Shown: positions 18,438 to 37,000 of the stretch, one piece after another
Layout: each line of letters begins with the position of its first letter
How positions within the stretch are numbered: position 1 is the stretch's first letter
Virus record (IMG/VR): IMGVR_UViG_3300009169_000019
Coordinates: 1 to 64,000 of that record
Source: a virus
Taxonomy: Duplodnaviria; Caudoviricetes
Length of the DNA: 64,000 nt
Reading direction: 5' to 3' (one strand)
Made by a program: the position numbers and the translations under genes
The notes under the pieces: generated by a model
What the model was told of the DNA's origin: nothing
The model's database searches: none
Seen by the model: the letters and a program-made list of their open reading frames with translations, nothing else

Positions 18438-19263
18438 AACATTAACAACAAGAGATAATGGGAGAAGTAGTGATGCTATTTCTCCCAATTTTATTTATGG
18501 CTGCAACGGGGGATGTCTTTCATCATATTGTTATGTTGCTAGATATAACAATGACAGAGTGTATATAAATGAGAATAGAGCAGATATATTTAATAGTATA
18601 GATAACTGGGTGAGTAAACAACCTAATGTTAAAACCCCTAATCAAATAGATGATAAGTATTATACAATAGATATAGGATGTAGTACAGATGTTCCTTTAA
18701 TGAGAAAACAATATGATTGGCAAAAAGTATTTGACTACTTTAATAATCATCCTAAACTTAAATCAACATTTGCCACTAAATATCCAACAAAATTTAAACC
18801 TGAAGAGTATAGTTTAAATCCAGATAAACATAGGATTAGAGTAAGTTTAATGCCTCAGAAATATTCTGATATACTAGAACCTAAAACTGATTTTATATCT
18901 GAACGCATACAATCTATTCCTAGATTACAAAAATATATGGAAGTGCATATAAATTATAGTCCTATTATTTATAAAGAAGGATGGTTAGATGAATACAAAA
19001 AACTATTTGAAGAAGTTAAAAGTGCTAGTATAGATGTTAAATGTGAATGTATCTTTTTGACACACAATAAGTTTCAGCATGAAAGGAATTCAGAAGAAGT
19101 AAGAGAGCTTCTATGGAATCCTGATATACAAGAAACTAAAGACTCTCAATATGCTGCTGACAACATTAGATATAGGTGGCAACTTAAAAACAAAATGATA
19201 GAACAATTTAAGGAACTATACAGTGAGTATTTTCCTATTAATAACATTAGATATATATTTTAA
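18412..19263 (+). CDS. Spore-photoproduct-lyase-like radical SAM protein
   Basis: SSDAISPNF..GCNGGCLSSYCYV, DIGCSTD, TFATKY, RIRVSLMPQ, EVHINYSPII, RYIF terminus. Confidence 0.8.
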   Translation: MKIIHQKTKTLTTRDNGRSSDAISPNFIYGCNGGCLSSYCYVARYNNDRVYINENRADIFNSIDNWVSKQPNVKTPNQIDDKYYTIDIGCSTDVPLMRKQYDWQKVFDYFNNHPKLKSTFATKYPTKFKPEEYSLNPDKHRIRVSLMPQKYSDILEPKTDFISERIQSIPRLQKYMEVHINYSPIIYKEGWLDEYKKLFEEVKSASIDVKCECIFLTHNKFQHERNSEEVRELLWNPDIQETKDSQYAADNIRYRWQLKNKMIEQFKELYSEYFPINNIRYIF

Positions 19264-19264
19264 C

Positions 19265-19702
19265 ATGAAAAAGAAAAGCGCACTTTATTTAGATGACCAG
19301 CGAACCCCAACTGTTGATCCTCCTATAGGATATAATCCTTGGTATATAGTAAGAAACTATGATGAGTTTAAAGAATGGATAAACAAACATGGTATGCCAG
19401 ACTATGTATCTTTTGACCATGACTTGGCAGATGAACATATGCAAGACTATTATAAATATCAGTTTAATGGTATTGCTGCTATAAACTATAACGACTTTAA
19501 AGAAAAAACCGGATTAGATTGTGCTAAATACATGATTGAGTATGCAATGAACAATAATATTAATCTACCTAATCTAGTGGGGGTACACAGTCATAATCCA
19601 CTAGGGGCTTTGAATATACAAAATCTTGTTAACAGCTATAAAAAACACTTAGACCAAGATGAGAATGCGTATATTGCAAAGATTCCTTTTAAAATTAAAT
19701 AA
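19265..19702 (+). CDS. Receiver-like domain protein (cyclic-phosphate-processing receiver family)
   Basis: LYLDDQRTP, VRNYDEF, VSFDHDL, TGLDCAK, VHSHNP.G. Confidence 0.8.
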   Translation: MKKKSALYLDDQRTPTVDPPIGYNPWYIVRNYDEFKEWINKHGMPDYVSFDHDLADEHMQDYYKYQFNGIAAINYNDFKEKTGLDCAKYMIEYAMNNNINLPNLVGVHSHNPLGALNIQNLVNSYKKHLDQDENAYIAKIPFKIK

Positions 19703-19883: not shown

Positions 19884-22800
19884 TTATCTATTTGTTGTAT
19901 TAAATCTTATATCCCAATCTTTTCTAAAATCATCATCAAAAATTGCTCTTATTTGAATTCCTTCTTTAAATATAGGCATCATTTTTGATAAATATTTTGC
20001 AGGTTTTGCTTTTTCTAAAAGATCTTGATCATTTAAAACAAAACCGTATCCTTGACTAACAACCGATTCAGTAAATTTAAAAAAATCATCAGCTAATCCA
20101 ACTACAGGTAGTGGTTTGTTTACAAGATTTGACCAAGAAGGAGCACTATAAAAGAAAGAAAATTCATCAAAATATTTTCTAAATGCTCTTGCAGCATATG
20201 TTCTTAAACCGACATCTTGATCATCGTCATCATCATCACTCAATATTGTAAACATCAATGCTCCAATACCTATAATCATTAAGAATTCTCTGTACATTGA
20301 TTTTATATTACCAATATACATATCTATAAATTCACCTTCTGTTATATTAAATTCTTCACCTTTTTCAATAGCTTCAGCTTTTAATAATAAATATTTTTGT
20401 TTAGCTGCTTCTATCATATTTGTTCCACTTGAATTAATTATTCCAGTTAATAATTGGGGTGCTCTTTTACTAAATAATTCTCCAATCCATAAATTAAATT
20501 TACCAATTGTATGCACTTCAAGATCCTGATCATATTTTAATTTTCCAAATCTTTCTTGAACCATTTGTGGCATCCATGATCTAAATTGCATAGCCATAGA
20601 ACCTAACATACCCATTCTAATATTATTAATATCATCTCTACTAGAGTTACCTAAAACATTTTTGTTTACTTTCTTAATTTTTAATCTAAATCTACCCCAT
20701 TGTTCACTTTGTAAATCTATTCCGGGTATTTCAATTTTGTCATTAACAATTTTAGCAGTATTATAAATTGATTTTGTATCTTTTAAAGTTTTTACTTCAT
20801 CTTCTATTTTTTTTCTAATAACATCTTGTTCTGCCTTAGGAAGTGAATAAAATGATTCATTATATTTATATTTGGCTTTAACATATGTTTTTATATCTAC
20901 AATCTTTCCATTTTCATCAACCATATGATTTTTCATTATAGCAATTGCAATAGGATATTGTACAGCTTTATCACTTGCTCTCATCATAAAGAATGCTTTA
21001 TCTATGGTGTTAGCATTAATAATACTTGAAACAGAAAGTTTATTTATCATTGCTTCTTTTCTATCTTCTATTAATACATCTGCAACACCTAATAGTCCAA
21101 AAGCAATTTCATTTCTTTTGGTTATATCATAAATAGAAGAAGTCCAGTCAGCTGTGTTAAATATAATACCTTTACTTGCCTGGAAGAATGCATTACCTGT
21201 ACCACCCACAAAGTTTGCTGTTCCTGATAAAGGATTTAATGCAAGTGTTTTAAGAGAAAAGAATCTTGTCATCCATCCAAGTACTTTATGTGCAGAATAT
21301 TCTTTATCTCCAATCTTAAAAGCTTTATCTTCCATTTTACCGGATTGAATATTATAAAAATAATAATTAATAAAGTCTGAAAGTAATTGTGAGTTTATTT
21401 CGTTTCCTGGTATTTCTTTTTTAATTCCGCTTTCAAGTACAGGTTTACCAAACGGATTGGTCTCAATGTGAGGTTTATTTTTTTCAACAAACAATAATAA
21501 TCTTGCTTTATCTTCAATTTCAGACATTGACTGATAATTAGCTAATTGTGCAGACCAAATACCAAACACTCTAAACAAATCCATACTCTTTTGAGAATAA
21601 TCTAATGTACCATCTTCTCTTTCTATACCCATATCTCTAATAAAATGTGTAGGTATAGAATGTTCAATAGCACCTGTGATCGGATTGATTTGAGGAGCAA
21701 ATGGTGATTCTCCAGATTCAACTTCTAAACTTTCAAATATTCCTTTTTTAGAAAACATATCACCACCAAAAACAAATTGTTCTAATTTATTTCTACTTAT
21801 ATTAGGAATAAATGCGGGAGAATAATCATCAATTAGTCCTGCTTTATTAGATCTTTTTAGTAAATCCTGAAAAAAGTTATAAGTTTTTAAAGCAATCGGA
21901 CTTGCTTCTAGTTTTTTCCATTGTTCAGTTTGCCATTTTTCTTTTGGTTTTAAATATGAATTTAATACTTTTTTACCATTGTAATTATCCATGTTTAAAT
22001 AAGCATTCTTATTTTTATTTTTACCGCCAATATTTACATCATGTTTTTTCAACCAGTTATTATATGCTTCTTCCTGAAGTTCTTTATTTCTTCTTTCATT
22101 TTTAGAATCATACACAATAGTTTCATAAAACTCTTTTTGTCTTATTTTATCTTTATTGAATTTTTCTTCATTAAATTCTGTGTTGTCAATTAACCATATA
22201 CTATCTTCTGATTGCACAGCATCTTGCATTTTTTTATAAAACTCACTTTGATATTTTTTTAAAAACTTACCGGTCCATTCGCCTTTAGCATTATAATCTA
22301 AAAGAGGTTTAAATAAATCTTTATCAGAATATCCTTTAGAACGAGCCCATTCAACATATTCTTTTCTTAATGTAGAAAGTTCTTCATAATCTTTATTAAA
22401 TAAGTTATCTCTTTTATTTTGAGCATCACCAAGAATTCTACTAAACACCCTAAATGCTTTTTGAGGAATAGTACTTAATGAACTAAACATACCCGTTAAT
22501 TTAGATATTTCGGTTTCAGCATCTAACAAATTTACAATACCTGTTTTTTCTTGTGAAAATTTAAATGCAATATTTTTAATTGCATTTTGCATATCACTAA
22601 GTACAATGTCAGCAGAGGTATTCATTTGGTTGTAGTCATTTATTATTTCATCTACAACTTCTTTAACATATTCTTCTTTTGTTTCTTTTTTAATTTTTTT
22701 AAGTTCATTCATGTAATTATTAAATACACGTGTAGTATTTGTAAATACTTGTAATATTTCTAATGATTCAAGAGCATCTTTTTCAGTGAGATTGTTACTT

Positions 22801-25172
22801 TCAATTAATTTTTTATATTTATTAATTTCATAATTACCAAGGTCAATAAACTTTCTAATATCACCTCTGAGTTGCAAATCTCTTACGGCGTTTTTATATT
22901 TAGCTAATTCTATTTGTTTACGCCTACGTTCATCTTCCGTTCTATATTTTTTATTTTCAAGAATATCCATTACACTGCTTAACTTCTTAATGTATTCAGA
23001 TAGTTCTTTATCAGCAGATTTTTCATCTCTTAATGTAACGGGAAGTAAATAATTTTTATTATCAGGAATTGATGAAAGATCAAAACTACCCATTTCAATT
23101 TTATTAATTCCTTCAATAGTTCGTTTCTCTTCTTTTCCTGTGTATGAATAAACTACTTTAATAGGAATAGCCCTTACAAGTCCAAAGTTTTTAATGTCAT
23201 AATGTGTTTGAAGAATTTTTTTATACTCTTGTAACTGAATTCTATACATTGTTTCTTTGTATGATTTTAATTCAGTTTGTTCTTTTCCAATTTCTTGACT
23301 CTTCCAATCATATATGTTTGCTGTACCATCTGGTTCAATTACTAACAAGTCAATACTACCAGCAACATCTTTTATAGGGTCATATATTTTAACCTCACGC
23401 ATGAATTTAGTGCCGGGAGCATTGTAGTTTTCAATTAAATCTTGTATATATTTTTCAAATAATTTATAAGGATCTGTGTCAAAATATTTACTACTAGAAG
23501 CAGCTGGCATTTCTCTTACAAAATGTGTTTCAGGATCAACATAAACGTCTATTATATCCTGCATCATTTCGTGAATTACATCACCATAATCAGCTTTGAG
23601 AAGATCTATTTTCTTTTGTATTTCGCTTCTGTTGTCATTTGGAAATTTACGTTTTAACCACGCATCAACATACTTTGAAGTAACTGAAGATTTTATATCT
23701 TTACCATTAATGGTGTAGATGTGTCTTTTTTGTTTGGTTTTAGGATCAACGCTGTTGTCTAATTGAATATCTTTTTGATGTTGTTCAAGTTTTTCTATTC
23801 CTTCTAATTGATAATACTCACCTGTTTCTTGAATATTATCTTTAGATAAATTACTAATATCTGCTTTTAAAATACTTTCTGCTGATTGAACAAACGGATC
23901 TGTAACAGACTTAGTAAATAATTTCTTAATAAAATTTAATAATTTATCCCACCAATTATTAAATTCTTTTATTTTAGATTCTGACTCACCAACAGCAGAA
24001 TGTTTAACAATGTGTTGTGCAATAAGTTTACCTATTGCTTCTTTTTTAAGTTTATTAATATTAAGACTACCGTCTTTATTTCGATATTGACTGTTATTTC
24101 TATATGTCTGAACTGTGTCTTGGTATATTTTATATCCCGTAATTTTAGACATCATTTCAATAAAGAGAGGATTATTCTCACCCAACATTTCAACAAAAAA
24201 GTGAGCAGCTTCTTCCGGTAATGTTGTTATATCTGCTTTACCTTCTATCACTTCAACTATCTTATTAAGCATATCTGCTTTAGCAACAGCAGATAATTTA
24301 TTACCTTCTGCATTTCTTATTTCATCTACAGATTTAACAGATACACCAATCTTTTCTAAGAAGTTTTGTACTAATACATTTAATTCTTTATTGACTTTTT
24401 CTGTAGATTGTGTTTCTTTTTGAAGATATATTTCTTCTTTATTTTTTTCTGTTAATGTTATTTCATTCCATGTATTACCATATTCATCTGTAATTTGTTT
24501 TACATTCTCTTTACCGTATTGTTTATTAAGAACATTTTTTACAGTATTTTCATAAAAGTTATAAATAGGTTTTAAAGCACCAAATCCTTCTGTTTCTACT
24601 CTTTCAAGTTCTTGTTCAATTTGTTCTTTTTCACGTTTAGCTTCTTCAATTCTTCTTTCTATATTTTCAGGGTCATTTATTTCTCCATCTAAAAACTTAA
24701 TCCTATCTTCTTTCTGTTTTTTAAACTCTTCTAAAGTAGTATGGCCCTCAACTTTACTTGCTGTATTACCACTAGGAAATAATACTTTCTCATATCCTTT
24801 TTTAGCTGCATTTTGAATTATTGCTTTTATACCAAAAGTAATCCAGTTATCATTTTTATGTAACAAAGCTAAAAATTGATTATCTCCACCAGCATCTATA
24901 AAATCTTCAAAAGCTTTATTATAAACATTAGATGAAACTTCTACTTCATCTATTAAGTAAACCTTTTTACCATTATTATCAGCAGGTATAATAATATTAT
25001 GAGGAACTCCTCTAAACTTAAAATTATTTCTAAGTTTTTGAAAATAATCTGATTGATACTCTTGAACTCTAAGAGTTCTTGGTTGATTTATAAAATTAGG
25101 TTTAACAAACTCTTCTATAAAAGCTTGTTTATCTTTATATTCAACACCATTAAATATATATTTACATGCCAT
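19884..25172 (-). CDS. Large virion cargo/ejection protein (1762 aa): C-part of a QSD-motif domain, zincin-like EExxH domain, PD-(D/E)XK nuclease, helical C-terminal region
   Basis: VQEYQSDYFQK; TLPEEAAHFF; EVKIYD..VAGSIDLL..DG..NIYDWKS; hydrophobic segment FLMIIGIGALMFTIL; last gene of the vRNAP block. Confidence 0.8.
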   Translation of the reverse strand: MACKYIFNGVEYKDKQAFIEEFVKPNFINQPRTLRVQEYQSDYFQKLRNNFKFRGVPHNIIIPADNNGKKVYLIDEVEVSSNVYNKAFEDFIDAGGDNQFLALLHKNDNWITFGIKAIIQNAAKKGYEKVLFPSGNTASKVEGHTTLEEFKKQKEDRIKFLDGEINDPENIERRIEEAKREKEQIEQELERVETEGFGALKPIYNFYENTVKNVLNKQYGKENVKQITDEYGNTWNEITLTEKNKEEIYLQKETQSTEKVNKELNVLVQNFLEKIGVSVKSVDEIRNAEGNKLSAVAKADMLNKIVEVIEGKADITTLPEEAAHFFVEMLGENNPLFIEMMSKITGYKIYQDTVQTYRNNSQYRNKDGSLNINKLKKEAIGKLIAQHIVKHSAVGESESKIKEFNNWWDKLLNFIKKLFTKSVTDPFVQSAESILKADISNLSKDNIQETGEYYQLEGIEKLEQHQKDIQLDNSVDPKTKQKRHIYTINGKDIKSSVTSKYVDAWLKRKFPNDNRSEIQKKIDLLKADYGDVIHEMMQDIIDVYVDPETHFVREMPAASSSKYFDTDPYKLFEKYIQDLIENYNAPGTKFMREVKIYDPIKDVAGSIDLLVIEPDGTANIYDWKSQEIGKEQTELKSYKETMYRIQLQEYKKILQTHYDIKNFGLVRAIPIKVVYSYTGKEEKRTIEGINKIEMGSFDLSSIPDNKNYLLPVTLRDEKSADKELSEYIKKLSSVMDILENKKYRTEDERRRKQIELAKYKNAVRDLQLRGDIRKFIDLGNYEINKYKKLIESNNLTEKDALESLEILQVFTNTTRVFNNYMNELKKIKKETKEEYVKEVVDEIINDYNQMNTSADIVLSDMQNAIKNIAFKFSQEKTGIVNLLDAETEISKLTGMFSSLSTIPQKAFRVFSRILGDAQNKRDNLFNKDYEELSTLRKEYVEWARSKGYSDKDLFKPLLDYNAKGEWTGKFLKKYQSEFYKKMQDAVQSEDSIWLIDNTEFNEEKFNKDKIRQKEFYETIVYDSKNERRNKELQEEAYNNWLKKHDVNIGGKNKNKNAYLNMDNYNGKKVLNSYLKPKEKWQTEQWKKLEASPIALKTYNFFQDLLKRSNKAGLIDDYSPAFIPNISRNKLEQFVFGGDMFSKKGIFESLEVESGESPFAPQINPITGAIEHSIPTHFIRDMGIEREDGTLDYSQKSMDLFRVFGIWSAQLANYQSMSEIEDKARLLLFVEKNKPHIETNPFGKPVLESGIKKEIPGNEINSQLLSDFINYYFYNIQSGKMEDKAFKIGDKEYSAHKVLGWMTRFFSLKTLALNPLSGTANFVGGTGNAFFQASKGIIFNTADWTSSIYDITKRNEIAFGLLGVADVLIEDRKEAMINKLSVSSIINANTIDKAFFMMRASDKAVQYPIAIAIMKNHMVDENGKIVDIKTYVKAKYKYNESFYSLPKAEQDVIRKKIEDEVKTLKDTKSIYNTAKIVNDKIEIPGIDLQSEQWGRFRLKIKKVNKNVLGNSSRDDINNIRMGMLGSMAMQFRSWMPQMVQERFGKLKYDQDLEVHTIGKFNLWIGELFSKRAPQLLTGIINSSGTNMIEAAKQKYLLLKAEAIEKGEEFNITEGEFIDMYIGNIKSMYREFLMIIGIGALMFTILSDDDDDDQDVGLRTYAARAFRKYFDEFSFFYSAPSWSNLVNKPLPVVGLADDFFKFTESVVSQGYGFVLNDQDLLEKAKPAKYLSKMMPIFKEGIQIRAIFDDDFRKDWDIRFNTTNR

Positions 25173-25173
25173 T

Positions 25174-25911
25174 TTATTCTTTTATTTTAATATGATTCCA
25201 ATTTTGACCAGACTGAATAGCTTTAATTGTTCTAAGTTTTACGTTATACTTATCAGCTATAATTTGCTGTTTTACTTTATCTTTCAAAAGATATTTAATT
25301 TCTTTTACTTGTTTTTCAGTAAGTTTTGAAAATCCATTATTACTGCCTTTAGAAATAATATCTGTAACAATATTATGTTTCTTTTTTAATTGTGTAATTA
25401 CAGAGGGTGATAAATTGTGTTTTTCAGCAATTATATCTTGTCTAATCCCAGATTTTAAATCTTCTAAAATTTGCAAATTTCTTTGTTCTTTTTGTTGTCT
25501 AATAAAAGCAGTTTGTTCTCTGGTAATTTTTAATTTATCTTTATGTTTTCTTCCTACAGAATCCCAATATTTACTGTTTGAGATTTTTCTTTTTTCTATT
25601 GTTTCTTCAGATTGTTTTATTCCTAAACAATTACCTGCTACACTGCAAATATTATATTCAGGTTTTAAACTATCTAAATAAAATTGTTCTCTTTCAAGTA
25701 ATAAATTTTCATCACAATTTTCTAAAATAGAAAATTCAAAATTATCTGAACCATATTTATGAAAAGCTCTTTGTAAAGCTAATGAATGATGTACATTACA
25801 TTTTAAATCTGTTAAATGTCTTTTCCATCTTTTATTAAGTCTTATAGAACTTCCTATATAAGATTTTCCATTTATCTTATTTTTTATTTGATATATTCCT
25901 GATGTTTGCAT
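25174..25911 (-). mobile_element. Free-standing GIY-YIG homing endonuclease (probable start MQTSGIY)
   Basis: SGIYQIKNKINGKSYIGSS, RWKRH, LLEREQFYLD, YNI; NUMOD3-like KQSEETIEK; two C-terminal HTH-like repeats. Confidence 0.92.
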
Positions 25912-25916
25912 AACTA

Positions 25917-25948
25917 CAAATATACAACAAAATTCTGAATGTACCGAA
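25917..25948 (-). promoter_or_regulatory. Bacteroidota-type promoter for the GIY-YIG gene
   Basis: Minus strand reads TTCG-N20-TATATTTG-TAGTT-ATG. Confidence 0.6.
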
Positions 25949-25949
25949 T

Positions 25950-28052
25950 TTAAGAACATTTTATTTGAAGAATTTTACTATTTTCCATGATTTTCAACAA
26001 GTTATCAATATCCTGTTCTTGGTATTGCGCTTTTTCATCTGTTCTACTCCACATCAATCCTTTATCGGTAGCAAACTGAGCATGTCCTTTTATAGAAGGT
26101 TTAATTAGTGGTGTAGATATTTCTTTTTCTGTATAGTTGGTACCTCCTGGAACTGTTAGGTTAGAGTAATATTGAGAAGGGTTTTGTTTAAAATTATTTA
26201 AAGCTTTTTCAAATTCTTCTTTCGAAATTAACACTTCTTGTTCTTGAATATTACTTTTATAGTATTTTATACCATTTACACCCTTTACTATCTCATAATT
26301 AGTGTCATTAAAGTTAAAAGCTGAATAATTATCTTTAAAAGGGTCTGTAGTATAAGCTGTATTAATTTCAACAGTATAACTATAATTAGCAGCAAATGAT
26401 GTTAACTTTTCTTCAATAGTATTACCTTCTGATTCTTTTAATAAATTAACTTGATCTTTAGGTATTTGAAAATCTTGTTGTATTTTATTCCAGAATGTAT
26501 TATTATTACCTATTTGTTTCCAAAGTTTATTTATTTTATCTAAATTATTATATAAGTTTGATACAACTTTAAATTGATATTGTAAATTAGATTCTTCACC
26601 TATTGATTTATTTTTAGGAAGTTGAAAATATATAAATTCATTTTTTTCTATATCTCTTTTATTAAAGTTAGAAGTTCTATAATCTTCTTGATCTTTTTCA
26701 CGTTGAAACATTCTTTCATTTACATCATTTGGTGAAAGTGTTAATTTACCAAAATATATATCTTGTACTGATGAAAAACCACCTACAGATTGTTCTTCTG
26801 ATTCTGAATTGTATATAAAAAAATCAACAGGTATATTATATTGAGCAAGATTATTTATTTCTTTTTCAGATAAATTAGAACCATCTTCTTTAGTAAAAAT
26901 AGTTTCTTTTGAAGAAATATGTTTAATATTTGCAACAACCTCACCATTAGAATTAACTAAAGTATATTCTGTTAACCAACCTTTATTATCTCTATTTAAA
27001 TTTTTAAAAGTATAACCAGAAGCAGGTATTAAATAAGCATATGTTTTATATTTTTTTTCAGAACTACCCCAACCATCATGTATTGGTACAGCATTTATAT
27101 CTTGCATATGAGAATTTATTTTCTCATATTCTGTAACGCTATCAACAGTAAAATCTAAATCATGAATAGGTGCATTAGAAGGTCTATAAATAGTTTCACC
27201 TTGACCTGCAATAGCTAAACTACCTACAAGTTTATAATTAAAATCTTTACCTGTGTATCTACTAATTATATCTTTGGCTAAATTATTTCCTGAAACAGCT
27301 TGTTCATAATTTAATTTTTCAACTTTAGAATTAGGTGAACCAATAAAATTTTGATTTTCAGTTAATATATTAAATGCAATTTTATCAGCAGCATCTTTAA
27401 AATAACTTCCTTCTTTTAATACAAATGGTTTTGTAAATTTATTTAAAAATTCAGTTACTGCTTTAAGTATTTTTAATAATAAATTTCTTTCTTCTTTTGT
27501 TTTATTTGTCCATTGTTGTAATAAAGATTCTGTAATAAGTTTACCTAATGCTTCTACTTTAACTTGTTTTTCATTATTATAAACTGGCATATACTCATCA
27601 TATACTGCCTGATATCCTGACCAATCTTTAATGTTATCCATTAAATCTCTTATTAATGGATGTGTTTGACCCATTAACATTACAGTCATATGAACAGCTT
27701 CTTCTGGTATTGTATCTAATTTTTTTTCTACAGAATGATATATAATTTTATTAAGAACATCTGTAGCACCTAATGCATCAACTCCCCATCTTTCTTTAAA
27801 GTTTTTTATTTCATTAGATTGAACACCATATCTAGAAAGAAAATTTAAAAGTTTTGCATCTAATTTTTTATCAGCTTCTTTTATTTCTTGAGATGTAAGT
27901 TGATATTGTACGTCTACTTCAATTGAAACTTCATATTCATTTTTTGGAACAACTCCTTCATACTTATCCCATAAGTAATAAGCCATATCTTCACCTCTAG
28001 AAGATACTAATGATTTCCAAGAATCTAAATTTTTATTAGGACATGTTGCCAT
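25950..28052 (-). CDS. Virion cargo protein (700 aa): EExxH zincin-like domain, Pol-beta-type nucleotidyltransferase-like domain, N-part of a split domain
   Basis: TIPEEAVHM; LVGSLA..(x)..HDLDF..PVDFF; ends VPGGTNYTEKEI..GHAQF..WSRTDE plus tail. Confidence 0.75.
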   Translation of the reverse strand: MATCPNKNLDSWKSLVSSRGEDMAYYLWDKYEGVVPKNEYEVSIEVDVQYQLTSQEIKEADKKLDAKLLNFLSRYGVQSNEIKNFKERWGVDALGATDVLNKIIYHSVEKKLDTIPEEAVHMTVMLMGQTHPLIRDLMDNIKDWSGYQAVYDEYMPVYNNEKQVKVEALGKLITESLLQQWTNKTKEERNLLLKILKAVTEFLNKFTKPFVLKEGSYFKDAADKIAFNILTENQNFIGSPNSKVEKLNYEQAVSGNNLAKDIISRYTGKDFNYKLVGSLAIAGQGETIYRPSNAPIHDLDFTVDSVTEYEKINSHMQDINAVPIHDGWGSSEKKYKTYAYLIPASGYTFKNLNRDNKGWLTEYTLVNSNGEVVANIKHISSKETIFTKEDGSNLSEKEINNLAQYNIPVDFFIYNSESEEQSVGGFSSVQDIYFGKLTLSPNDVNERMFQREKDQEDYRTSNFNKRDIEKNEFIYFQLPKNKSIGEESNLQYQFKVVSNLYNNLDKINKLWKQIGNNNTFWNKIQQDFQIPKDQVNLLKESEGNTIEEKLTSFAANYSYTVEINTAYTTDPFKDNYSAFNFNDTNYEIVKGVNGIKYYKSNIQEQEVLISKEEFEKALNNFKQNPSQYYSNLTVPGGTNYTEKEISTPLIKPSIKGHAQFATDKGLMWSRTDEKAQYQEQDIDNLLKIMENSKILQIKCS

Positions 28053-28053
28053 A

Positions 28054-31000
28054 TTAACATATTGATTTTAAGATGTTACCAATTTGAAGAGGAGTGTATC
28101 CAATACTTTCTAATAATTTACTATTTATTTTTGAAACAGGATAAGAAACTGCGTCTTTTAATGTAATTGTTTTACCACTTACAACTTCTGCACCTTCAAC
28201 ACTAGTGGATTGTTGAGATGACAACAAACGTTGTTGAGCTAACTTCAATCCTTCTAAGAAAGCTTTATCAATTAATTCATTTGTATTATGTGTAAAGTTT
28301 TCATATTGAAGAAGTTTTTTAGCAGCTTCTGAATTAGGATTTTGAATAAAGCTTTCTACAACTAAATCTTTCATTATTTGTAAATTAGCACGTTTACCTA
28401 CCTCTGTAAGTTTAGGAGCTATTTTTACACCATATCCACCTTTTGCTACATAAGCATCGTAAGTAACTTTGTCAAACTTACCATTTTTATTTGATTGATA
28501 AGCATGTTCTACACTTCCGTATTCTCTAGTGACACCATCAATACTTTCATAACTAAACTTTCGTGGAGCTAAATTAGATAATATTCTTGTAGAAGTGGTT
28601 GATTCAGCTTGTCCCCAATATACATTAATAGTTCCTTTAGGTTGAACACTAGCGGATGGTTGGACCACTTTAGTTGCAGGAGTTATATTATAAAGATGAA
28701 CGCTACCTCCATCCATCAATGTTTTACCTGCATATTTAGCACCTTTTTCAAAATTAGCCCATGTACCAAATCCCTCAGCTTTAGCAAACTCATCTTTGGT
28801 GTAAGAAAATCCATTACCTACAACTTTATCTCCCTGAAGTTTTACAAACCCTCTGTGAGTGATATTAACTAAGTTACCTTTATCTGTAGTGTATACACCA
28901 TCTCCTTTATAGAAAGAATTATGATAACTACTGTTTCTTACAGTGGTTGTTGCTTGTCCAGTTTGTACCCAATCTTCAATAATATTTAATTTAATTTCAC
29001 CAAGGGGTTGTTGTTTTTGTATAGATGTTTGTAAAGTTGGTTGATTTAATATTGTAGCAGCAGCTTGTGGATTTAATTGTTGTAATGTTTGTATTGCCGC
29101 TTGTGTAGCTTCTTGAAGATTACGTAATGTCTCTTGTGTTACTGCTGGAACACTTGCTAAAGAACTTATTGAAGGTGTTTCTTCATATTGAGAAGGTTTT
29201 TTATATCCTTCAGGAGTAACAATATTATTCTTTTTAAGATTAGATTGTAACTGATTTTCCATTGATGTTTCGGTGTAATTTCTTCCATCACCTGAAGCAA
29301 CAATTGGTGAATAAATAGCGTATTCTCTTTCTTTAAATTTTCCTTGAATTGTTTTGTAACCAATTCTTTGATGAAGATAAGTGTCAAATGCTTTATAGAG
29401 CTTACCAAATTTCTTCAGTTTTTCAATCTGACTATCAGTTATTCCATTCTTACGTTTAGAAGTTGCAATGTATTCATAATTTGAATCAGAGTAATCTGTA
29501 TCTAATAATACATTACCTGTATACTTTTCAAACTTTTTAAATTGGGGTCTTATTACAATATTTCTATCAGATTTATTATTTTGATGAAATTGCTTCCATA
29601 CCAGATTAGGATCAATAGTAAATTCACTATTCATATATACATCTAATATACTATTAACCACTTGACTATACAAATGTGCGGGCAATATTTTAGTATAATT
29701 AATTGTACTATCTTGAAGACCTGACTGAAGAATACTAAAAATAGAAAGATTGTATACAAAGTTTTCAAGTTGTGTATTACCAGAAGCCTTTGCGTAATCT
29801 AATAAATTGTTTATAGACTCAATTAATACATCATTTTTAAATGTAGTCATTTTATTTCTAAACAGTTTAATATTATCTTGATCATCAACATTATTGGCAA
29901 ATATAGGTATTAGTTCTTTAATTGCTAAATTTTGAGATATGTTATAATCTTCAGAATTTTTAAGTAATTGTAATTGTTTAGTGATAGAATTTTCTCCCAT
30001 CATTAATTCTTTAAACTTAGCAGATATATTTGTTTCAATCTCCCCAAGTTTAAAATTTGTATTCTGAATAACATATGTAATAAAAAATCTCTGATATTTA
30101 TTTATTAATAATGACTTATCATCATTGGAAATAAACTTTTCTCTGTCTTCTAAAAACTCATACATTTTTTCAAATACAGGATATGCTCTTCTATCTAATG
30201 AAATAAACATGTTTTCAAATACGGAAAAAAGATCTTCTTTTTGTTTTTTCATTTCCCCAATAAATGTCTTATCTAAAATAGAATCCGGGTTCTTAATAAA
30301 TCCTGCTTCAAGCATTCTATTCCATCTAATAAGCTGCAATTGATTTTCAATAATAGTTTTTGTTTTTTTATTATCATATCCTATTGCACCAATAAATTCA
30401 GTAAGATAGCTTGACTGCTCAACATAATCTAAATAATCTGTTAATAACATAATCTGCATAGCTGCATCATCTTCTGTAATCTTATATTTAGGATTATTTA
30501 GATTTTTAATTGCATTCTTTAACTCATCTACTGTTGGCTTTTTATACTTGTTTTTGATTTCATTAATTCCTTGAAATAATTTTTCTTTAAGAGCTTTTAT
30601 TTCCACTCTTAAATTAATCACTTCTTGTTCATTAAGACTTTCTGTAGTATTTAATATATTTGTTTTTTCATTAATCTGATCAATAACAGAAGACATTTCA
30701 TTATTGTATATTTTCACATATTTAGAAATACTATTAATAAAAATTTGCTCTCTAAAAGTTACATTTTTATTTACTTTTCTGAAAATTGAGTTATTCATGT
30801 TTTCTGACTTCATAAAATTCTCAACAGCAGGTTGATTAAATAAATATGCAATTTCTTTCATTGGCACCCCAAGCTTTTGTAAATAGAACCAAGTGCCAGC
30901 AGTATTAAAATTAATATTTAAAGAAAATACAAAAGGATCTTTAGCAGCATCTACAAATCCAGAAAGTGCTTCAGATATATTTTCAGAAATCCATCTACCT

Positions 31001-34000
31001 TCAGCATCTGTTTTAGCATTTATGTAAAACTCACCTAATTTAGACTCGTTATGAGAAAGATTAATACTTATTGCTTTTACATATTTTCCATCTTCTGTTT
31101 TAAATTCGGGATCATATTTAACTAAGAATTTCATTTTTGAAACTTCATACTTACCAGATAATACAATATCTGAAATTTGTGACATAATGTGACTTGTAGA
31201 TTGCAATGCTGCAATACCAACAAGACGCTTACCAGTTAAATATCTTTCACGTGTTTCAGCTGATTGAATAAATTTACGAAGAGCAAGCATAGAATTTTCA
31301 GCATCTTTCTTTCCTTTAAGATCATTAATTTCATTAGCTAATGATTTAAGAGTGGCTGTACTATTAGGCATTATAAGCTGACGATAGTTTTCTGGCATGG
31401 AAATTAATTCTTCCATAGTTTCTCTTAATTCATTTTGAAGAGATTCCATACTATCTTGTCCGATTTCTACATATTCAATACTTTCAATAATGGGTGTAAA
31501 TGCTTTATTATTAATCCTATTATTCTTAATAACATCTTTACGATATTTATTATACTTTATTAACGCATCTTTAAATGTAGTGTAAAAAATATAATCTTCA
31601 CCAGTGATGTTTTGCGCAACTAAATAATCTTCAAGATCTCCAAATTTACCCAATCCGCTTCCAGCTGAAAATTGATTTAAATCTTCAACCATGTCTTTAA
31701 ATTCTTCTTCCGTAAGATTTTTAATTTTATTTTTTACAGTTTTTGGAAGATCTTTATAATAGTCAGTTGATTTAAAATCATTTATTGTTTCCTTAGTGAA
31801 TCTAGTATATTTTAATTTATAATTAGGAATATACAAATTCATTTTATCAATATCAAAGTCAGATCCTGCCTTACCTACTATTTCAGTAGGCACTACAATC
31901 ATATCTCCACTTTCTCTTGGTAAAAATCCTTTTACTACTATATTTTCAATAGAGTTCATACCTTGTGTTGGAATACGAAAACCAATCATATTAAGAAGTC
32001 TCTTATCCATGTTTGCTGGTATTTGATAAACCCCATTTACAAGTTTCATTCCAAAATCTTCAGGTTCAACATTTTCAAAATACCAGGGAATATAAATTTC
32101 CATTTTGGAAATCTTTCCATCTTTTAATTCATAGAATTTTAAATCAGATGATGTAGGAATAAGAGATTTAGTTTCATCTTCTGTTAACTGATCATCGGGT
32201 TTCATCTCAGTATATACACCGTCTTTTAAATACATCATGGTTCTGTTGGTAGAATTGTATCCCGTAAATGCAACCTGTACAGCAGGTTTACCAAACATTT
32301 TAGCAGATATAACTCTGCTATCCATTATAGAGTTTAATATATTATCTATTTTATCTCTATTAGCTAATGTATCAAATCTATATAACAATCCTTTAGTGTT
32401 AGGATTTACATCAAGTGCATCAACTAAATTAGAGGGAAGATCTCGTTTAGTTAATTCTTTACGTAAAAGATTAATCATGTTAGTGTAATCATTTACGGTG
32501 TAACTACCATCTTTTTCTTTTGTTATTCCTAATTCAACTAAAAGTTGTTCTTTACCTTTTTTAACTATATTTTCAATAAGTCTATTATAATTTGTAATTA
32601 ATACTTCTGCTCGATCATTAATATATTTACCATTCACTTTAAAATTAGACATGATAAGTTTTGTAAGCTGAGTACCTCTAACTACTTTGTTTTTATAAAC
32701 AGCAGGTTGTTCAGATTGAATACCGTAAAATTTAGTATATAGTGATTGAACTGGTAATCCAGAAGGTAATTGCCATTGTTTATTTTTTAATTCAATATTA
32801 ACTGCACCATCATTTTTAATTATAGAAACAAACTCACCAGTTTTAGGATTAAGCATTGCCCCCACTTTTTCACCAGATTCAAATCCAATAACATCTATTT
32901 GATTATTTTGTGCAGCTAAATATAACTTTTCATATTCAGTGCCCTCAACACTTCTGTAAAATTTAGGTTGTACCGAGTGTTTTAAAAATACAGTGTGCAT
33001 CATTGATGTGTTCACTGCATATCCAAAGTATTGAGGTTTAATTACAGGAAGAGGCACGTTAGGATTGCCTTTTTTAAGAATTCCTTCTGCCCATTTAACT
33101 GCGTATTTTCCTTTGTTATATGTTTTATATGCAGGATCTGTTTTAGATTTATTAGATCTTGCAACAACTTCATATGCAATTTCATAATCTATTTGATCTA
33201 ATTGTTTTTGAGAAAGCTTACCACTTAAAAATAACATGTCCCTATACATATCACTCATAATCCAACCTTGACCATCTGCCTCATTTAATTCTACATATGC
33301 TTTAATTTCTCCTGTAAATTTACCATCTTTAAGAATAAAGTTCTTAAATGTACCATCTTCATTAAAATTTGCACCCACTCTATTTTGTGCTTCTGTTAAA
33401 GATATACCATCTAAAAGAATCGACTTATATAAATTTTCAGCTATCTGCTTGTAAAAATTAGATACGGCAGTTACATCTTTAAATGATATATTTTTAAATG
33501 TTTGAATCTTTTCAGAAGCTCTTATTTTTTCATCAAATCTAGGAATTAAACTATCCATTTTAGATATAATGTGAGGATTGTCTACTATCGCATCTTTGGA
33601 CGAATTGATACCATTAGCACGTTTTGCCAAGTCTTTATAAAGAGCAGGGTGTCCATATAACAATTTATGTTGTTCTGTAACTGCAAGTTCTTTATTTATT
33701 GTAATATATTTTACAAGTTTTTCTAATTGATTTCTTGTTATGTTACTACTATCAATTTGAAAATAATCATTAAGCACTTGAGTATTAATAGCATCCGTTG
33801 TAAATTGATCTTCTGTAATCTGATTTATAATTCCAAGTTCTATCAATGCATCAATTGTAAAGTTTACAGTTTCTTTAAGATCGTTTTTAATAAGTTCTTT
33901 GATGACATTATCTGCTAAAAATTCTTCTTTAGTTATTTTACCAGCAAGTAAGTTTTCAAATCTAACCTGTAATCCTGATTTTCTTTCACCTGATTTTTTA

Positions 34001-37000
34001 AGTTCCTTTTCTGTTTTAAATTTAAGAACATCTTTAAAGTGACCAAGATATTTTACATTATCACTATAATATTGAATATTCGATTTTAAAGCTTTTTCTA
34101 CTATTGCGGCATCAATTTCATCCTCTAAATGTTGTAAATAAATATCCAACACCTTATTAAAGTTAGGATTGTCAATATCATATTCAGCTATTCTTGCACT
34201 AATAAAAGGTTTAGAAAATGTTAATCCAAATTCTGAACTCTTATCTGAATTAATAATTGTAAAATAAATTGGTTTCAATCCTTCTTTATCTGCATTTATT
34301 ATATAATTAATTTCTTGCATTATCCTGTCAGGATATGTAAGATTAGCTGTATCAACACCATTTGTATCCATTGAAGTTACACCAGAAATAAGGGTGTAAT
34401 CAATGTTATTTTTTTTATTACCATTTTCATCAAATATTAATCCTCCTGGTTTTAACAATTGTGAATTAGTTTGATACGCAAATACATTCACAACTTGTTC
34501 TCCATTTTCATCATATCCCGCTGTACCAAATTGAGGATTCGATGCTACAAAATCAGCAAGTGTTTTAGATTCATTTAATGAAGAAAGAACATAGTTTATG
34601 CTAGCAGGCAATGTAATAGAATATTGAGTTTCTCCAGAAGCTGTTGTATGAGTTAAGACTGAGCTATCGTATCTCATTATTTTCTCAATATCAATTAGCT
34701 TTTTCATATTACCAGACTCAGGTCCAATATTAGAATATAAATCTGCAATATTGATTATGCTATTTTCTTCATTACTAATAATTGAATTTTTAATTTTTAT
34801 AAAAGAACTAATAACATCAGATCTTTTGTTTATTATATTCAAAGGAATATCAGAAATAGTTTTGTTTTCTTTATATTCAACTCCAGTAAATGCTACACCC
34901 ATATCTTTTAAATACAGTAATGCTGTTTGAATAGATATGTTTTTATCATTATTATTTTTTAATTTTAAAAACTCTCTGTATTGAACGCTTTTTTTATCAA
35001 ATACAATATTACCTGTATCATCAATTCCTAAAAGCTGATTATTATTTTCTTCTTTATCAGTTACAAGCTTAAGATTTCTTGGAAGTTCTCCCTGCCATTC
35101 TTCACGAATTCTATCTTCATTTGTGCTCTCTAAAGCATTCATTAAATAAATTGAAGAATCTTCGTTGATGATAAGTTTTGAAGGTGTATTTTTTTTATTC
35201 ATTAAGCTTTTTTCAAAGCCAATCAACAATTTTAAATCATCAATGTTTATATTTTCCTTTGTAAAATAATTAATTGCTTCACCTGAGTATTTTAATCTTT
35301 TTTTCAATTTGTTAATCCATACAAAATTAGGTTTGTATTGATTAACTTTTTTATCGAAATACTTTTCATCAAGTTTTTTAAACATTGCTTTTAAAGCATC
35401 AACAAACAACACTTCTCCGTTTTGATCAACTTCTAATTTAGAATATGTACCATTCAATTCATTTAAAAGTAAATTTAATGTTGCATCATAATCAACAAGT
35501 TCAGGTAAATTTAACGAATTTTTCTTAGTGTATATTTGATTTGTTTTAGAATCATATATATCTTTAGTTAAACTACCAATGAGAATTTTAAATGACGTAG
35601 CAGTTAATCTTCTAGGATCTATATAGATTGTGTCTCTAATACCAGAAGTATCAACTACATCTAATTCATTAGGAGCACTATCTTCTTCAGCACCATCTTT
35701 TACTTCTGCAAATTGTAATCCATACTTTTGTAATGATTGCTTTAATATATTATATACAATTGTTGAATTTTGAAATGCATTTTCAATCATTGACGCATAT
35801 CTATTCTTTTCACTAAACTTGTTGTATGCAATATTTTTTATTTCATTGTTTTCTTCTACTGTTAAATTTCTACCGATTTGTTTTTGATAATTAATAAAAG
35901 TTGGTGCAAAATAATTTGTAAAAAATATGGATCCCTGTCCAAACAATTGTTCATAAATATTAGACATACTTGTTTCAAAAAGCTTTCTTAATATTTTATT
36001 ATTGTTTTCATCTTCTGTAAGAAGAGATTCAATATTTAAAGAAATAAAGTTTCCTTTATTATCTGTAAATAAATTAGGATTATGAAGATTCTGAAAGAAA
36101 TATGAACTTAACCCATCAATAAATTGTGTAGTAAATTCTTGTGTTGTATTTGGTACCACCTCTCTATATGATGTACCCATTTCAGAAATATCCCTAGCAA
36201 ATCTTACATTGGAATAATTACCTGCATTAATTTTATTAAAGAGTTTATTAATGGCGGATTCACCTTCAGATTTTTCTTTTTTAGAAAGACCTACATATTT
36301 TTTTATTGTGCTCCAAAGATCTTTAAAGAACTGTTTAATTTTTCCAAAAAATCCTTTTTCTTCAGTGGATATTTGTTCTTGTTCAGAAAGAATATAATTT
36401 CTAAATTCTTCAGCAAGCATTTCTCTAACATCATAGTGTGATGCTTCAGAATAATTTTTTGTTTCTTTTGAGAAAGGATTAGTAAAACTTCCTTCTCTAT
36501 TTCTAAATTCTTCAACAAATTCATTCTGTTCTTGTACAGTTAGATAGGCATTCCAAACGGCTTCAAATGCTTCATGAAAACCGGTTCCTATTTCTGCATT
36601 TTCATATATATAAACAATACTATTTTTAAAAGCACCCCAAGCTTTTCCATCAATTAATTCTGCAACTTTAACAACTTTAATATTTGGAAGTTTTGATTTA
36701 AACCATTCTTCTACTTTTTTAAAATCTTCAGTTTGTATTACAGATTGCTCAAGTTGTAATCTATATGCTTCATTGGGTTTAACACCACCTAATCCAGCAC
36801 TAAGAATATTTACACCACCACTTTGATTAAATGCTTTTAATGCTTCTTCTTTTTCTGATTCAGAAAGAGGTTTTGGTTGTTCGGGAGAAACAGGTTCTAC
36901 AAAAATACCCTGAGCTTGTATTTGTTCTAATCTTTTACCAATTGAAATAGGTTCAGTTTCAGCATTAATATTTTTACTGACTTGTTCAGCTACTGGTTGT

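What the first reader, a model, noticed from the sequence alone, without database searches (positions are those of the whole stretch)
25050..26160. Fractured gene: GIY-YIG endonuclease splits a domain, and the break is capped by a Cys docking pair rather than an intron or intein
Seen: the 700-aa ORF ends ...VPGGTNYTEKEI..GHAQF..WSRTDEKAQ plus a ~24-aa tail ending KCS. The 1762-aa ORF starts with a ~30-aa MACKY leader, then TLRVQEYQSDYFQK...AAKKGYEKVLFP. The endonuclease fills the gap with about 1 nt and 38 nt to spare. Family knowledge, from memory: in phage polyvalent proteins the motifs PGG.NY.E / H..R..D / E.QSD / A..GY..V belong to one contiguous domain, with only a short loop between R..D and E.QSD. 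Inference: the endonuclease sits in that loop together with a stop, a start and a self-associating peptide pair that reconstitutes the host protein. Known precedents (Aeh1 nrdA split by mobE; split inteins flanking endonucleases) lack this device, so this may be a distinct way for a homing element to be harmless.
Basis: partly seen in the sequence, partly recalled or inferred. Interest (0 to 1): 0.88.

Follow-up and report, generated by a model that had tools for sequence, protein, structure and literature searches.

The report
Cysteine-capped breaks in giant phage proteins
A homing endonuclease gene has cut a giant virion protein gene of a crAss-type phage in two, and the cut ends carry a conserved peptide pair ending and starting with cysteine, the same mark found at every other break in these otherwise cysteine-free proteins, which suggests that the pieces are rejoined end to end.

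Summary
On the minus strand a 700-aa ORF (A), a GIY-YIG endonuclease gene and a 1762-aa ORF (B) lie 38 nt and 1 nt apart. In 116 of 120 longer homologues the end of A and the start of B are colinear in one protein. A near-isogenic contig (L036, 99% identical flanks) has one unbroken 2307-aa ORF with no endonuclease.

The 24-aa tail (ending KCS) and the ~31-aa leader (starting MAC) form a conserved cassette. I found 23 distinct tail/GIY-YIG/leader cassettes at three or more sites of this domain and in a zincin-like domain.

The cysteine pair is not special to the endonuclease. The three chain proteins (7474 aa) hold four Cys, all at the two ORF junctions. Across 253 homologues, 269 of 346 Cys are terminal. 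phi14:2 gp67/66/65, crAss001 gp47/50/49 and phi4:1 show the same rule. Unbroken linkers hold no Cys.

Best reading: docking caps bring two terminal thiols together and link the pieces, probably by a disulfide, into one thread for virion packaging and ejection. The endonuclease travels with, or lives in, such a capped break. I rejected intron, intein and ribosome hopping.

The parts
28054..43092 (-). First piece of the chain: 5012-aa ORF with the RNA polymerase motif GSDFDIDK. It has no N-terminal Cys, and its single Cys is its last residue (...ILKSIC).
   Evidence: Translation; Cys count. The homologous junction (tail ...ILKSIC / leader MATCPNKN) is seen in L036, L004, L030 and L059.
28050..28059 (-). 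Junction 1, with no inserted gene: Cys codon, stop, 1 nt, then the ATG of A (MATCPNKN...). The close relative L001 has a second GIY-YIG gene at the corresponding junction.
   Evidence: WIN row; L001 2546-3160.
25950..28052 (-). Piece A, 700 aa. Its only Cys are Cys4 and Cys699.
26034..26174 (-). Conserved block 1 of the split unit (A residues 627-673: QYYSNLTVPGGTNYTEKEI...GHAQF...WSRTDE).
   Evidence: Alignment A1; BLASTP against L036.
25953..26024 (-). Tail cap, A residues 677-700 (YQEQDIDNLLKIMENSKILQIKCS); Cys699 codon at 25956..25958. The pattern is an amphipathic helix, an S-G/K turn, a short strand, Cys, one residue, then stop.
   Evidence: Conserved in 23 of 23 cassettes. Window versus L001: 5 synonymous and 0 non-synonymous codon differences in the tail.
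25174..25911 (-). Free-standing GIY-YIG homing endonuclease gene (245 aa; alternative start at 25959) with C-terminal helix-turn-helix-like parts.
   Evidence: Pfam PF01541 E 1.6e-11. PHROG homing endonuclease. 87% identical to the L001 copy. Absent from the near-isogenic L036.
25080..25172 (-). Leader cap, B residues 1-31 (MACKYIFNGVEYKDKQAFIEEFVKPNFINQP); Cys3 codon at 25164..25166. The pattern is Cys, a beta-hairpin (KYxYxGxxY), then a helix (xxEEFxxxV).
19884..25172 (-). Piece B, 1762 aa, the last piece of the chain. Its only Cys is Cys3, with none at the C-terminus. PD-(D/E)XK nuclease domain at residues 523-746.
25023..25079 (-). Conserved block 2 (B residues 32-50, RTLRVQEYQSDYFQKLR).
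   Evidence: Alignment A1.
24453..24881 (-). Conserved blocks 3 and 4 (B residues about 98-162 and about 183-240: NQFL..LL..NW...AAKKGYEKVLFPSGNTASKVEGH...; ...EGFGALKPIYNFYENTV...ITDEYGNTWNEI).
   Evidence: Alignment A1.

Best explanation
The window comes from a crAss-type or Lightbulbvirus-type phage of Bacteroidota. Its virion-delivered RNA-polymerase/'polyvalent' cargo protein is encoded as a chain of three ORFs: 5012 aa, then A (700 aa), then B (1762 aa).

The A|B break lies inside a conserved four-block unit of unknown fold. A free-standing GIY-YIG homing endonuclease gene sits in that break, framed by a tail cap of about 24 aa (ending Cys-x-stop) and a leader cap of about 31 aa (starting Met-Ala-Cys). 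All three genes are translated separately and are closely coupled.

Proposed mechanism (inferred, not shown). The tail (helix plus strand) and the leader (hairpin plus helix) dock into a small shared fold. This puts the C-terminal Cys of one piece next to the N-terminal Cys of the next. The two thiols then link the pieces, most likely by a disulfide formed in the virion. Separately made pieces would thus behave as one linear thread during packaging and ejection through the tail, and could come apart again in the reducing host cytoplasm.

This capped junction is the family's general way of tolerating gene breaks. The endonuclease plus caps acts as a portable cassette, or the endonuclease lives in a capped break, so it can fracture even conserved domains without an intron or an intein.
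For: SHOWN.
(1) Split of one unit. 116 of the 120 longer homologues listed have both halves colinear. 169 proteins carry block 1 and block 2 in one chain.
(2) Presence/absence polymorphism. L036 is 98.9% and 99.5% identical to the window on either side, but has one 2307-aa ORF and no endonuclease. The roughly 4.5 kb between is mosaic.
(3) Cassette. There are 23 distinct tail/GIY-YIG/leader cassettes. All tails end in C or C-x, and all leaders start MAC. They lie at site 1 (7), site 2 (11), site 3 inside conserved block 3 (1) and in an HExxH zincin-like region (4). All 8 further inserted ORFs that I scanned (the window's own was scanned) pass the Pfam GIY-YIG cutoff.
(4) An unbiased count of 21 ORF starts that lie inside the unit: 13 have a complete GIY-YIG ORF upstream, 2 have a cut ORF with a GIY-YIG-type C-terminus, 2 have an unknown 666-783-aa ORF, 4 could not be assessed, and 0 are empty.
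(5) The caps are under protein-level selection. In the 24-codon tail, window versus L001 shows 5 synonymous and 0 non-synonymous differences. The junction Cys uses TGT and TGC at the background ratio.
(6) Cys rule. There are 4 Cys in 7474 aa, all at the two junctions, against 1.24% in the other ORFs. In 253 homologues (480,179 aa) there are 346 Cys: 214 in the first 6 residues, 55 in the last 3, and 77 internal. 44 of 51 ORF junctions have Cys on both sides. There are 0 Cys in 169 unbroken linker-1 segments (7661 aa) and in 195 linker-2 segments (11,021 aa).
(7) The same rule holds in cultured phages whose pieces are MS/MS-detected virion proteins. In phi14:2, gp67 has only its last residue as Cys, gp66 has Cys3 and Cys2179, and gp65 has Cys3. 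In phi4:1 and phi17:2 the pattern is gp038/037/035 and gp039/038/036. In crAss001, gp47 has Cys2339 of 2341, gp50 has Cys5 and Cys2404 plus one internal, and gp49 has Cys5. There gp47 lies on the opposite strand.
(8) Pairing and polarity. The first piece lacks an N-terminal Cys and the last piece lacks a C-terminal Cys in the window and in phi14:2, phi4:1 and crAss001 (same calls).
(9) crAss001 cargo proteins are ejected partly unfolded through the tail, and inter-subunit disulfides exist in that virion (passages of PMC10172136).

INFERRED: the docking, the bond chemistry and the role in ejection.
Against: Disulfides do not form readily in the cytoplasm, and crAss001 lives in an anaerobic gut, so when any bond would form is unclear.

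crAss001 gp50 and cr108_1 gp052 have a few internal Cys. 77 internal Cys exist in the 253 homologues. 7 of 51 junctions lack one or both Cys, mostly at chain starts or next to the unknown 666-783-aa ORF.

Endonuclease-free junctions with the same leader type exist on at least 9 contigs. Different GIY-YIG subtypes sit in near-identical caps (L092 versus L083/L116). So the caps may predate the endonuclease rather than travel with it.

The linker at site 1 is hypervariable, so a break there might be tolerated even without caps. Whether the four blocks form one fold is not shown: there is no Pfam family and no PDB sequence match to the conserved core, only a weak 6n7m hit (E 0.0017) in the coiled-coil region.
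Confidence: 0.55

Rival explanations
1. The caps dock without any covalent bond. The terminal cysteines do something else, for example a shared metal site (a 'zinc clasp'), attachment to another virion part, or a packaging or processing signal.
For: The tail and leader have conserved amphipathic helix/strand patterns that could suffice for docking. Cytoplasmic thiols are normally reduced. No bond was tested.
Against: Only one Cys per end is conserved, and no further His or Cys ligands are conserved nearby. The strict pairing rule fits a pairwise link better than independent roles: a C-terminal Cys occurs only where a piece with an N-terminal Cys follows, the first piece lacks an N-terminal Cys, and the last lacks a C-terminal Cys. 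Near-total removal of all other Cys is what one expects if stray thiols would mis-pair.
Confidence: 0.2
2. Null reading. The endonuclease simply landed in a loop that tolerates anything. The tail and leader are leftovers of the loop, and the two halves reassemble by themselves, as recalled for Aeh1 NrdA split by mobE. The terminal Cys are a lineage quirk.
For: Linker 1 is 14-181 aa long and hypervariable, and it accepts a whole kinase domain. Similar hairpin-helix motifs occur in unbroken linkers.
Against: The same caps recur at three sites, including inside conserved block 3, and in another domain. The tail is under purifying selection. There are 0 Cys in 364 unbroken linkers against Cys on both sides in 23 of 23 cassettes. 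The rule holds across distant phages.
Confidence: 0.1
3. Recoding. Ribosomes hop from the Cys codon before the stop to the Cys codon after the ATG, as recalled for T4 gene 60 next to mobA, or shift frame, and so make one polypeptide.
For: A Cys codon lies just before the stop and another just after the next start. At junction 1 the gap is only about 13 nt (coordinates).
Against: At the finding itself the gap is 777 nt and holds a translated gene. Every downstream piece keeps its own ATG 1-4 codons before the Cys. The spacing between ORFs varies from -4 to +22 nt. In crAss001 the piece with the C-terminal Cys (gp47) is on the opposite strand from its presumed partner gp50. In phi4:1 the three pieces are annotated separately as MS/MS virion proteins, with a SLOG gene in one junction.
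Confidence: 0.03
4. The cassette is a group I intron, or a split intein, that restores a continuous protein.
For: GIY-YIG genes often live in group I introns, and 'fractured genes' hold split inteins around a free endonuclease gene (PMC2677866; only the listing and the start of the abstract were seen). A likely intron does interrupt the polymerase gene of cr108_1.
Against: No Rfam family matched at E up to 10 in 24700..26500 apart from three chance snoRNA hits, and none matched at gathering score in the whole window. Only 38 + 1 nt are non-coding. The tail and leader are conserved as protein. Tail plus leader is about 55 aa, far below a Hint fold, with no Cys/Ser at the start of the tail and no His-Asn + Cys/Ser/Thr at the end of the leader. 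The Cys lie at the wrong ends for splice junctions.
Confidence: 0.03

Closest known systems
'Fractured genes': a split intein with a free-standing homing endonuclease gene between the halves (Dassa et al. 2009, PMC2677866; listing and start of abstract seen)
   Same: A host gene is cut into two ORFs with an endonuclease gene in the gap. Extra peptides at the cut ends are thought to restore the protein.
   Different: The endonuclease is GIY-YIG. The same caps also occur at many breaks that have no endonuclease.
Aeh1 nrdA split by mobE ('genes in pieces'), and T4 gene 39/60 with mobA and the 50-nt bypass (both recalled, not read here)
   Same: A free-standing phage homing endonuclease splits an essential gene and function is kept.
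   Different: As recalled, those cases have no conserved docking peptides and no terminal cysteine pair. T4 uses ribosome hopping, which is excluded here by the 777-nt gene in the gap and by the opposite-strand partner in crAss001.
Virion RNA polymerase cargo set of crassviruses: phi14:2 gp65/66/67 and crAss001 gp47/49/50
   Same: The window's chain holds the DFDID polymerase motif and a module similar to crAss001 gp49. The pieces are virion proteins in the cultured phages. The same terminal-Cys rule holds.
   Different: The window has the first two pieces fused into 5012 aa. Its last piece is broken again by an endonuclease cassette. The split four-block unit was not found in the cultured-phage collection by tblastn.
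Docking domains of NRPS/PKS subunits, and interchain disulfides of AB toxins (recalled analogies only)
   Same: Short terminal peptides pair successive polypeptides in a fixed order. In AB toxins a disulfide holds two chains together until reduction in the target cytoplasm.
   Different: There is no sequence relation. Here both features would be combined, at gene breaks of a phage-ejected protein. Nothing was tested.

Membership tests
GIY-YIG homing endonuclease (free-standing) | GIY-YIG catalytic domain | tested here: met
   PF01541 E 1.6e-11, 44.8 bits against a cutoff of 22.6. PHROG 314 and 7168 'homing endonuclease'.
GIY-YIG homing endonuclease (free-standing) | Own ORF, not in frame with the host gene, plus a DNA-binding C-terminal part | tested here: met
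   Separate ORF with its own stop and start. HTH_23 at E 1.2e-4 is below the Pfam cutoff. Relatives carry NUMOD3 or sigma-70 r4-like HTH above the cutoff.
GIY-YIG homing endonuclease (free-standing) | Presence/absence polymorphism at the same site in close relatives, with mosaic flanks | tested here: met
   L036 is 99% identical in the flanks, has an unbroken ORF and lacks the endonuclease. The window's cassette is 80% nt identical to L001.
GIY-YIG homing endonuclease (free-standing) | Cleavage of the endonuclease-free allele and homing | not testable with these tools
   This needs an enzyme assay or mixed infection.
Split intein / fractured gene | N- and C-intein halves that together form a Hint fold (about 130 aa or more), with a nucleophile at the start of the N-intein and His-Asn + Cys/Ser/Thr at the end of the C-intein | tested here: not met
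   The tail is 24 aa and starts YQEQ. The leader is about 31 aa and ends ...NQP before the host block. The Cys lie at the break ends. No intein family appears in the Pfam scans of A and B.
Group I intron with a nested endonuclease gene | Structured intron RNA matching Rfam, with intronic flanks not selected as protein | tested here: not met
   No Rfam match. The tail shows 5 synonymous and 0 non-synonymous changes.
Programmed translational bypass (T4 gene 60 type) | One polypeptide made across a short untranslated gap between matched codons | tested here: not met
   The gap is 777 nt and holds an ORF. The downstream piece has its own ATG. The presumed partner in crAss001 is on the opposite strand. 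Protein-level proof was not available.
Crassvirus-type virion RNA polymerase cargo chain | Giant ORFs next to the tail/structural module, one with the DFDxD motif, with relatives packaged in virions | tested here: met
   GSDFDIDK in the 5012-aa ORF. tblastn hits to crAss001 gp49-type genes. PHROG virion structural proteins upstream. MS/MS notes in the phi4:1 and phi14:2 records.
Polyvalent proteins (Iyer et al. 2017) | Many unrelated effector domains in one giant phage or plasmid protein | tested here: inconclusive
B has PDDEXK_1. Homologues carry ART-PolyVal, MuF_C, NADAR, Zeta_toxin/AAA_33 and His_Phos_1 (Pfam column).

The most novel reading that the evidence does not exclude
Crassvirus-type phages stitch separately translated pieces of their ejected RNA-polymerase/effector cargo head to tail. 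They do this through single cysteines at the very ends, brought together by caps of about 25 + 30 aa, so the pieces form one linear 'protein train'. The train can be threaded through the tail and is unhooked by reduction in the host. GIY-YIG homing endonucleases have captured this stitch as a portable cassette, which lets them fracture even conserved domains harmlessly. That would be a third solution beside introns and inteins, and a ready-made minimal tag pair for joining proteins end to end.
Probability: 0.35. Interest if true: 0.95.

Novelty: categorically new. Interest (0 to 1): 0.88.

Why it matters
If the terminal cysteines link the pieces, this explains how giant virion-delivered proteins can be encoded in pieces, even on opposite strands, and still be packaged and ejected together and in order. 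This applies to the polymerase sets of the most abundant human-gut phages. It would also show a new way for a selfish endonuclease to be harmless, with no intron or intein. It gives a direct bench test in existing model phages (phi14:2, crAss001, phi4:1). It offers a natural peptide pair of about 55 aa as a candidate tool for split-protein assembly.

In what I could search, the rule is not mentioned:
- The crAss001 structure paper has 0 occurrences of 'cysteine', and its disulfides concern only tail hub and ring proteins.
- The phi14:2 polymerase preprint has 0 occurrences of cysteine, Cys or disulfide.
- The polyvalent-protein paper has 0 occurrences of 'cysteine' by the search listing.

Supplements and subscription journals were not seen.

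Tried and rejected
Structure and complex prediction were the planned tests of docking and of 'one domain'. The ESM Atlas gave nothing: it does not hold the exact sequence, and it has no usable hit and no model for the stored homologue P0106.

A profile of the four-block unit against PDB sequences gave only a weak coiled-coil-region hit (6n7m, E 0.0017). Pfam on all 27 members gave no shared family. Pfam on the divergent L104 version gave nothing.

Pfam and PHROGs found nothing for the 5012-aa ORF halves or for the 1078-aa and 658-aa ORFs. They also found nothing for the 666-783-aa inserted ORF.

Relatives of the window's endonuclease in other phages (11 loci) are ordinary free-standing genes without Cys caps. 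So the caps are not a general trait of this endonuclease lineage.

Expression: no RNA holder was listed. The laid runs were contigs only. Two may be the source of the window. A third run (X3) has a 1901-nt contig carrying the same cassette with 80 differences. No contig joint removes exactly the endonuclease. Small contigs of X20 ('RNA? probably DNA') over 25760..26039 prove nothing.

Supplements of papers were not opened and may hold proteomic termini that bear on the claim.

Full report
**What is there**

On the minus strand the window holds, head to tail, four ORFs:
- a 5012-aa ORF (28054..43092);
- ORF A (25950..28052, 700 aa);
- a GIY-YIG ORF (25174..25911, 245 aa);
- ORF B (19884..25172, 1762 aa).

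The gaps are 1 nt, 38 nt and 1 nt. The endonuclease call is solid: Pfam PF01541 at E 1.6e-11, above the cutoff, and PHROG 'homing endonuclease' at E 3.6e-26.

**Context**

The contig is 72,359 nt with 28.9% G+C. Upstream lie large virion structural genes. The 5012-aa ORF carries GSDFDIDK, the DFDxD motif of crAss-type virion RNA polymerases (the motif is named in the abstract of 10.1101/2020.03.07.982082). Residues 261-470 of B resemble crAss001 gp49-type 'RNA-polymerase subunit' genes and virion structural genes of Cellulophaga phages phi17:2 and phi4:1. The three ORFs are therefore this phage's version of the virion-packaged polymerase/accessory cargo.

**Are A and B halves of one thing?**

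Yes, on three lines of evidence.
- A search with A residues 520-700 among longer proteins gave 410 hits, of which 120 were listed. 116 of these also match B residues 1-260, colinear and downstream, after a variable spacer. The other 4 (P0022, P0024, P0025, P0110) are themselves proteins that stop at a Cys-ended tail.
- In 61 IMG/VR loci found with B 1-215, the A-end and the B-start share one open frame in 51. They are split in 7, and the A part lies off the locus in 3.
- L036 is the decisive relative. It is 98.9% identical to the window up to position 29010 and 99.5% identical from 24494 to 19884. It has a single 2307-aa ORF, no endonuclease, and one Cys (Cys4). The roughly 4.5 kb between those points is mosaic.

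The unit that is split consists of four very conserved blocks separated by three hypervariable linkers (alignment A1). Linker 1, where the window's break lies, is 14-181 aa long in 169 unbroken proteins. In L024 it holds a kinase-like domain. I could not show that the blocks form one fold.

**The cassette**

All 7 split IMG/VR loci have a GIY-YIG gene in the gap. The 8 inserted ORFs that I scanned all pass the Pfam cutoff.

A degenerate pattern for the leader retrieved further cases from IMG/VR and from metagenomes. In total there are 23 distinct tail/GIY-YIG/leader cassettes:
- 7 in linker 1;
- 11 in linker 2, one of them in a divergent version of the unit;
- 1 inside conserved block 3, between ...SIIQ and ...KILFP (L048);
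- 4 in a region with an HExxH zincin-like motif.

Every tail ends with a hydrophobic strand, then Cys, then 0-1 residue. Every leader starts MAC, followed by a KYxYxGxxY hairpin motif and an EEF-type helix.

The ORFs are tightly coupled. In 5 cassettes the endonuclease's last codons and stop are written in the same nucleotides as the leader's first four codons (gap -11).

The caps are selected as protein. Between the window and L001 the 24-codon tail has 5 synonymous and no non-synonymous differences.

An enumeration that did not presuppose an endonuclease found 21 ORF starts lying inside the unit:
- 13 have a complete GIY-YIG ORF just upstream;
- 2 have a truncated ORF ending like one;
- 2 have an unknown 666-783-aa ORF;
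- 4 have too little upstream DNA to assess;
- none is empty.

**The cysteine rule is much wider than the finding**

The 5012-aa protein has one Cys, its last residue. A has Cys4 and Cys699. B has Cys3. That is four Cys in 7474 aa, all at the two junctions, against 1.24% Cys in the contig's other ORFs.

In the 253 homologues fetched (480,179 aa) there are 346 Cys: 214 within the first six residues, 55 within the last three, and 77 internal, or 0.016%. Of 51 junctions between consecutive Cys-poor large ORFs in 57 unique loci plus the window, 44 have Cys on both sides. Most of these have no inserted gene, and their gaps range from -4 to +22 nt.

Unbroken linkers have no Cys at all: 0 in 169 linker-1 segments and 0 in 195 linker-2 segments. 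So a break goes with a Cys pair, and a fusion goes with no Cys.

The rule holds in cultured phages.
- phi14:2: gp67 (1797 aa) has only its last residue as Cys. The polymerase gp66 (2180 aa) has Cys3 and Cys2179. gp65 (1421 aa) has Cys3. All three are MS/MS virion proteins by the record's notes.
- phi4:1 and phi17:2: a 1957-aa piece has only its last residue as Cys, a 517-aa piece has Cys4 and Cys516, and a 1914-aa piece has Cys3. A SLOG gene sits in the second junction.
- crAss001: gp47 has Cys2339 of 2341. gp50 has Cys5, Cys2404 and one internal Cys. gp49 has Cys5. gp47 is encoded on the opposite strand.
- cr108_1 shows the rule at gp053|gp052, but with some internal Cys.

In each genome the first piece lacks an N-terminal Cys and the last piece lacks a C-terminal Cys. 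Junction Cys codons are TGT or TGC at the background ratio.

**Mechanism**

Shown: the split, the mobile-element signature, the conserved and translated caps, and the pairing rule.

Inferred: the tail and leader dock, and the two thiols join the pieces. I favour a disulfide formed in the virion, for four reasons.
- Only one Cys per end is conserved.
- All other Cys have been purged.
- crAss001 cargo proteins must pass the tail partly unfolded.
- That virion does use inter-subunit disulfides (passages of PMC10172136).

An end-to-end link keeps a chain threadable. I cannot exclude a metal clasp or docking alone.

On origin there are two options:
- the endonuclease carries the caps with it, which would explain why domain-internal breaks are never empty;
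- the endonuclease colonises pre-existing capped breaks. Caps without an endonuclease occur on at least 9 contigs, and different GIY-YIG subtypes sit in near-identical caps.

Both may be true in sequence.

**Rivals rejected**
- Group I intron. There is no Rfam hit, only 39 non-coding nt, and protein-level selection on the flanks.
- Split intein. The caps total about 55 aa, carry no splice motifs, and have Cys at the wrong ends.
- Ribosome hopping. The gap holds a 777-nt gene, each piece has its own ATG, and the crAss001 partner is on the opposite strand.

**Comparison and novelty**

The arrangement works like a 'fractured gene' (PMC2677866; listing and start of abstract only). It also resembles the recalled mobE/nrdA and mobA/gene 60 cases, but it is a member of none of them.

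I found no mention of the terminal-cysteine rule in the papers I could query. Supplements and non-open journals were not seen.

I rate it categorically new as a device. The caveat is that all function is inferred from sequence.

Noticed in passing
L125 (cr108_1) 15015..15304: The polymerase gene is interrupted exactly at the catalytic motif. gp054 ends ...AKAGSD and gp053 starts (L)YDIDKM, with about 290 nt of non-coding, structured-looking DNA between. The window has GSDFDIDKM unbroken. This is probably a self-splicing intron.
   Followed up: no
L057 3605..5956; L060 2297..4297; L044 8516..10675; L043 53..1837; L081 (oriented) 1271..1774: An unknown 594-783-aa ORF starting MYKNI(N/K)VEAEHNELILEN... 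sits in chain junctions, including site 3 of the split unit. There the upstream piece has the tail Cys (..LLEIDC) followed by an extension of about 65 aa ending ..GLVIPKN instead of a stop. No Pfam or PHROG match. It may be a second kind of inserted element.
   Followed up: partly
L001 2546..3160 (same contig as L076): The closest cassette-bearing relative has a second GIY-YIG gene (204 aa, with NUMOD3) in the junction upstream of its A-like ORF (tail ..LIEKQCP, leader MGCIIKYKK..). The corresponding junction of the window (28050..28059) is empty.
   Followed up: partly
L089 (phi17:2) 18944..19303; L124 (phi4:1) 7944..8303: A 119-aa SLOG-family gene (Pfam YAcAr, E 2.4e-15) occupies the Cys-capped junction between the 517-aa and 1914-aa virion proteins. 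So capped junctions also host genes other than endonucleases.
   Followed up: partly
window 27420..27914 (A residues 47-211) and 23763..24392 (B residues 261-470): A and B each carry a copy of the same module. Both hit the same place of cr85_1, and A 47-211 matches L036 residues 792-973 at 30% identity. This is an internal duplication within the chain.
   Followed up: no
L074, L084, L085, L090, L091, L115, L123: Contigs with leader-like sequences (MLTCINKK...) show only short broken ORFs under table 11 around the match. This may be stop-codon reassignment in these phages.
   Followed up: no
L079, L099, L105, L109, L111 (cassette 3' ends): The endonuclease ends ..NG(L/M)-stop in the same 11 nucleotides that encode the leader's M-A-C-K in another frame. 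Endonuclease and leader are therefore physically interlocked.
   Followed up: partly
L024 5389..6762; P0014, P0167, P0185; L116 leader region: A P-loop kinase-like domain (AAA_33 / Zeta_toxin) is inserted in linker 1 of the four-block unit in some homologues. This shows how permissive the linker is.
   Followed up: no
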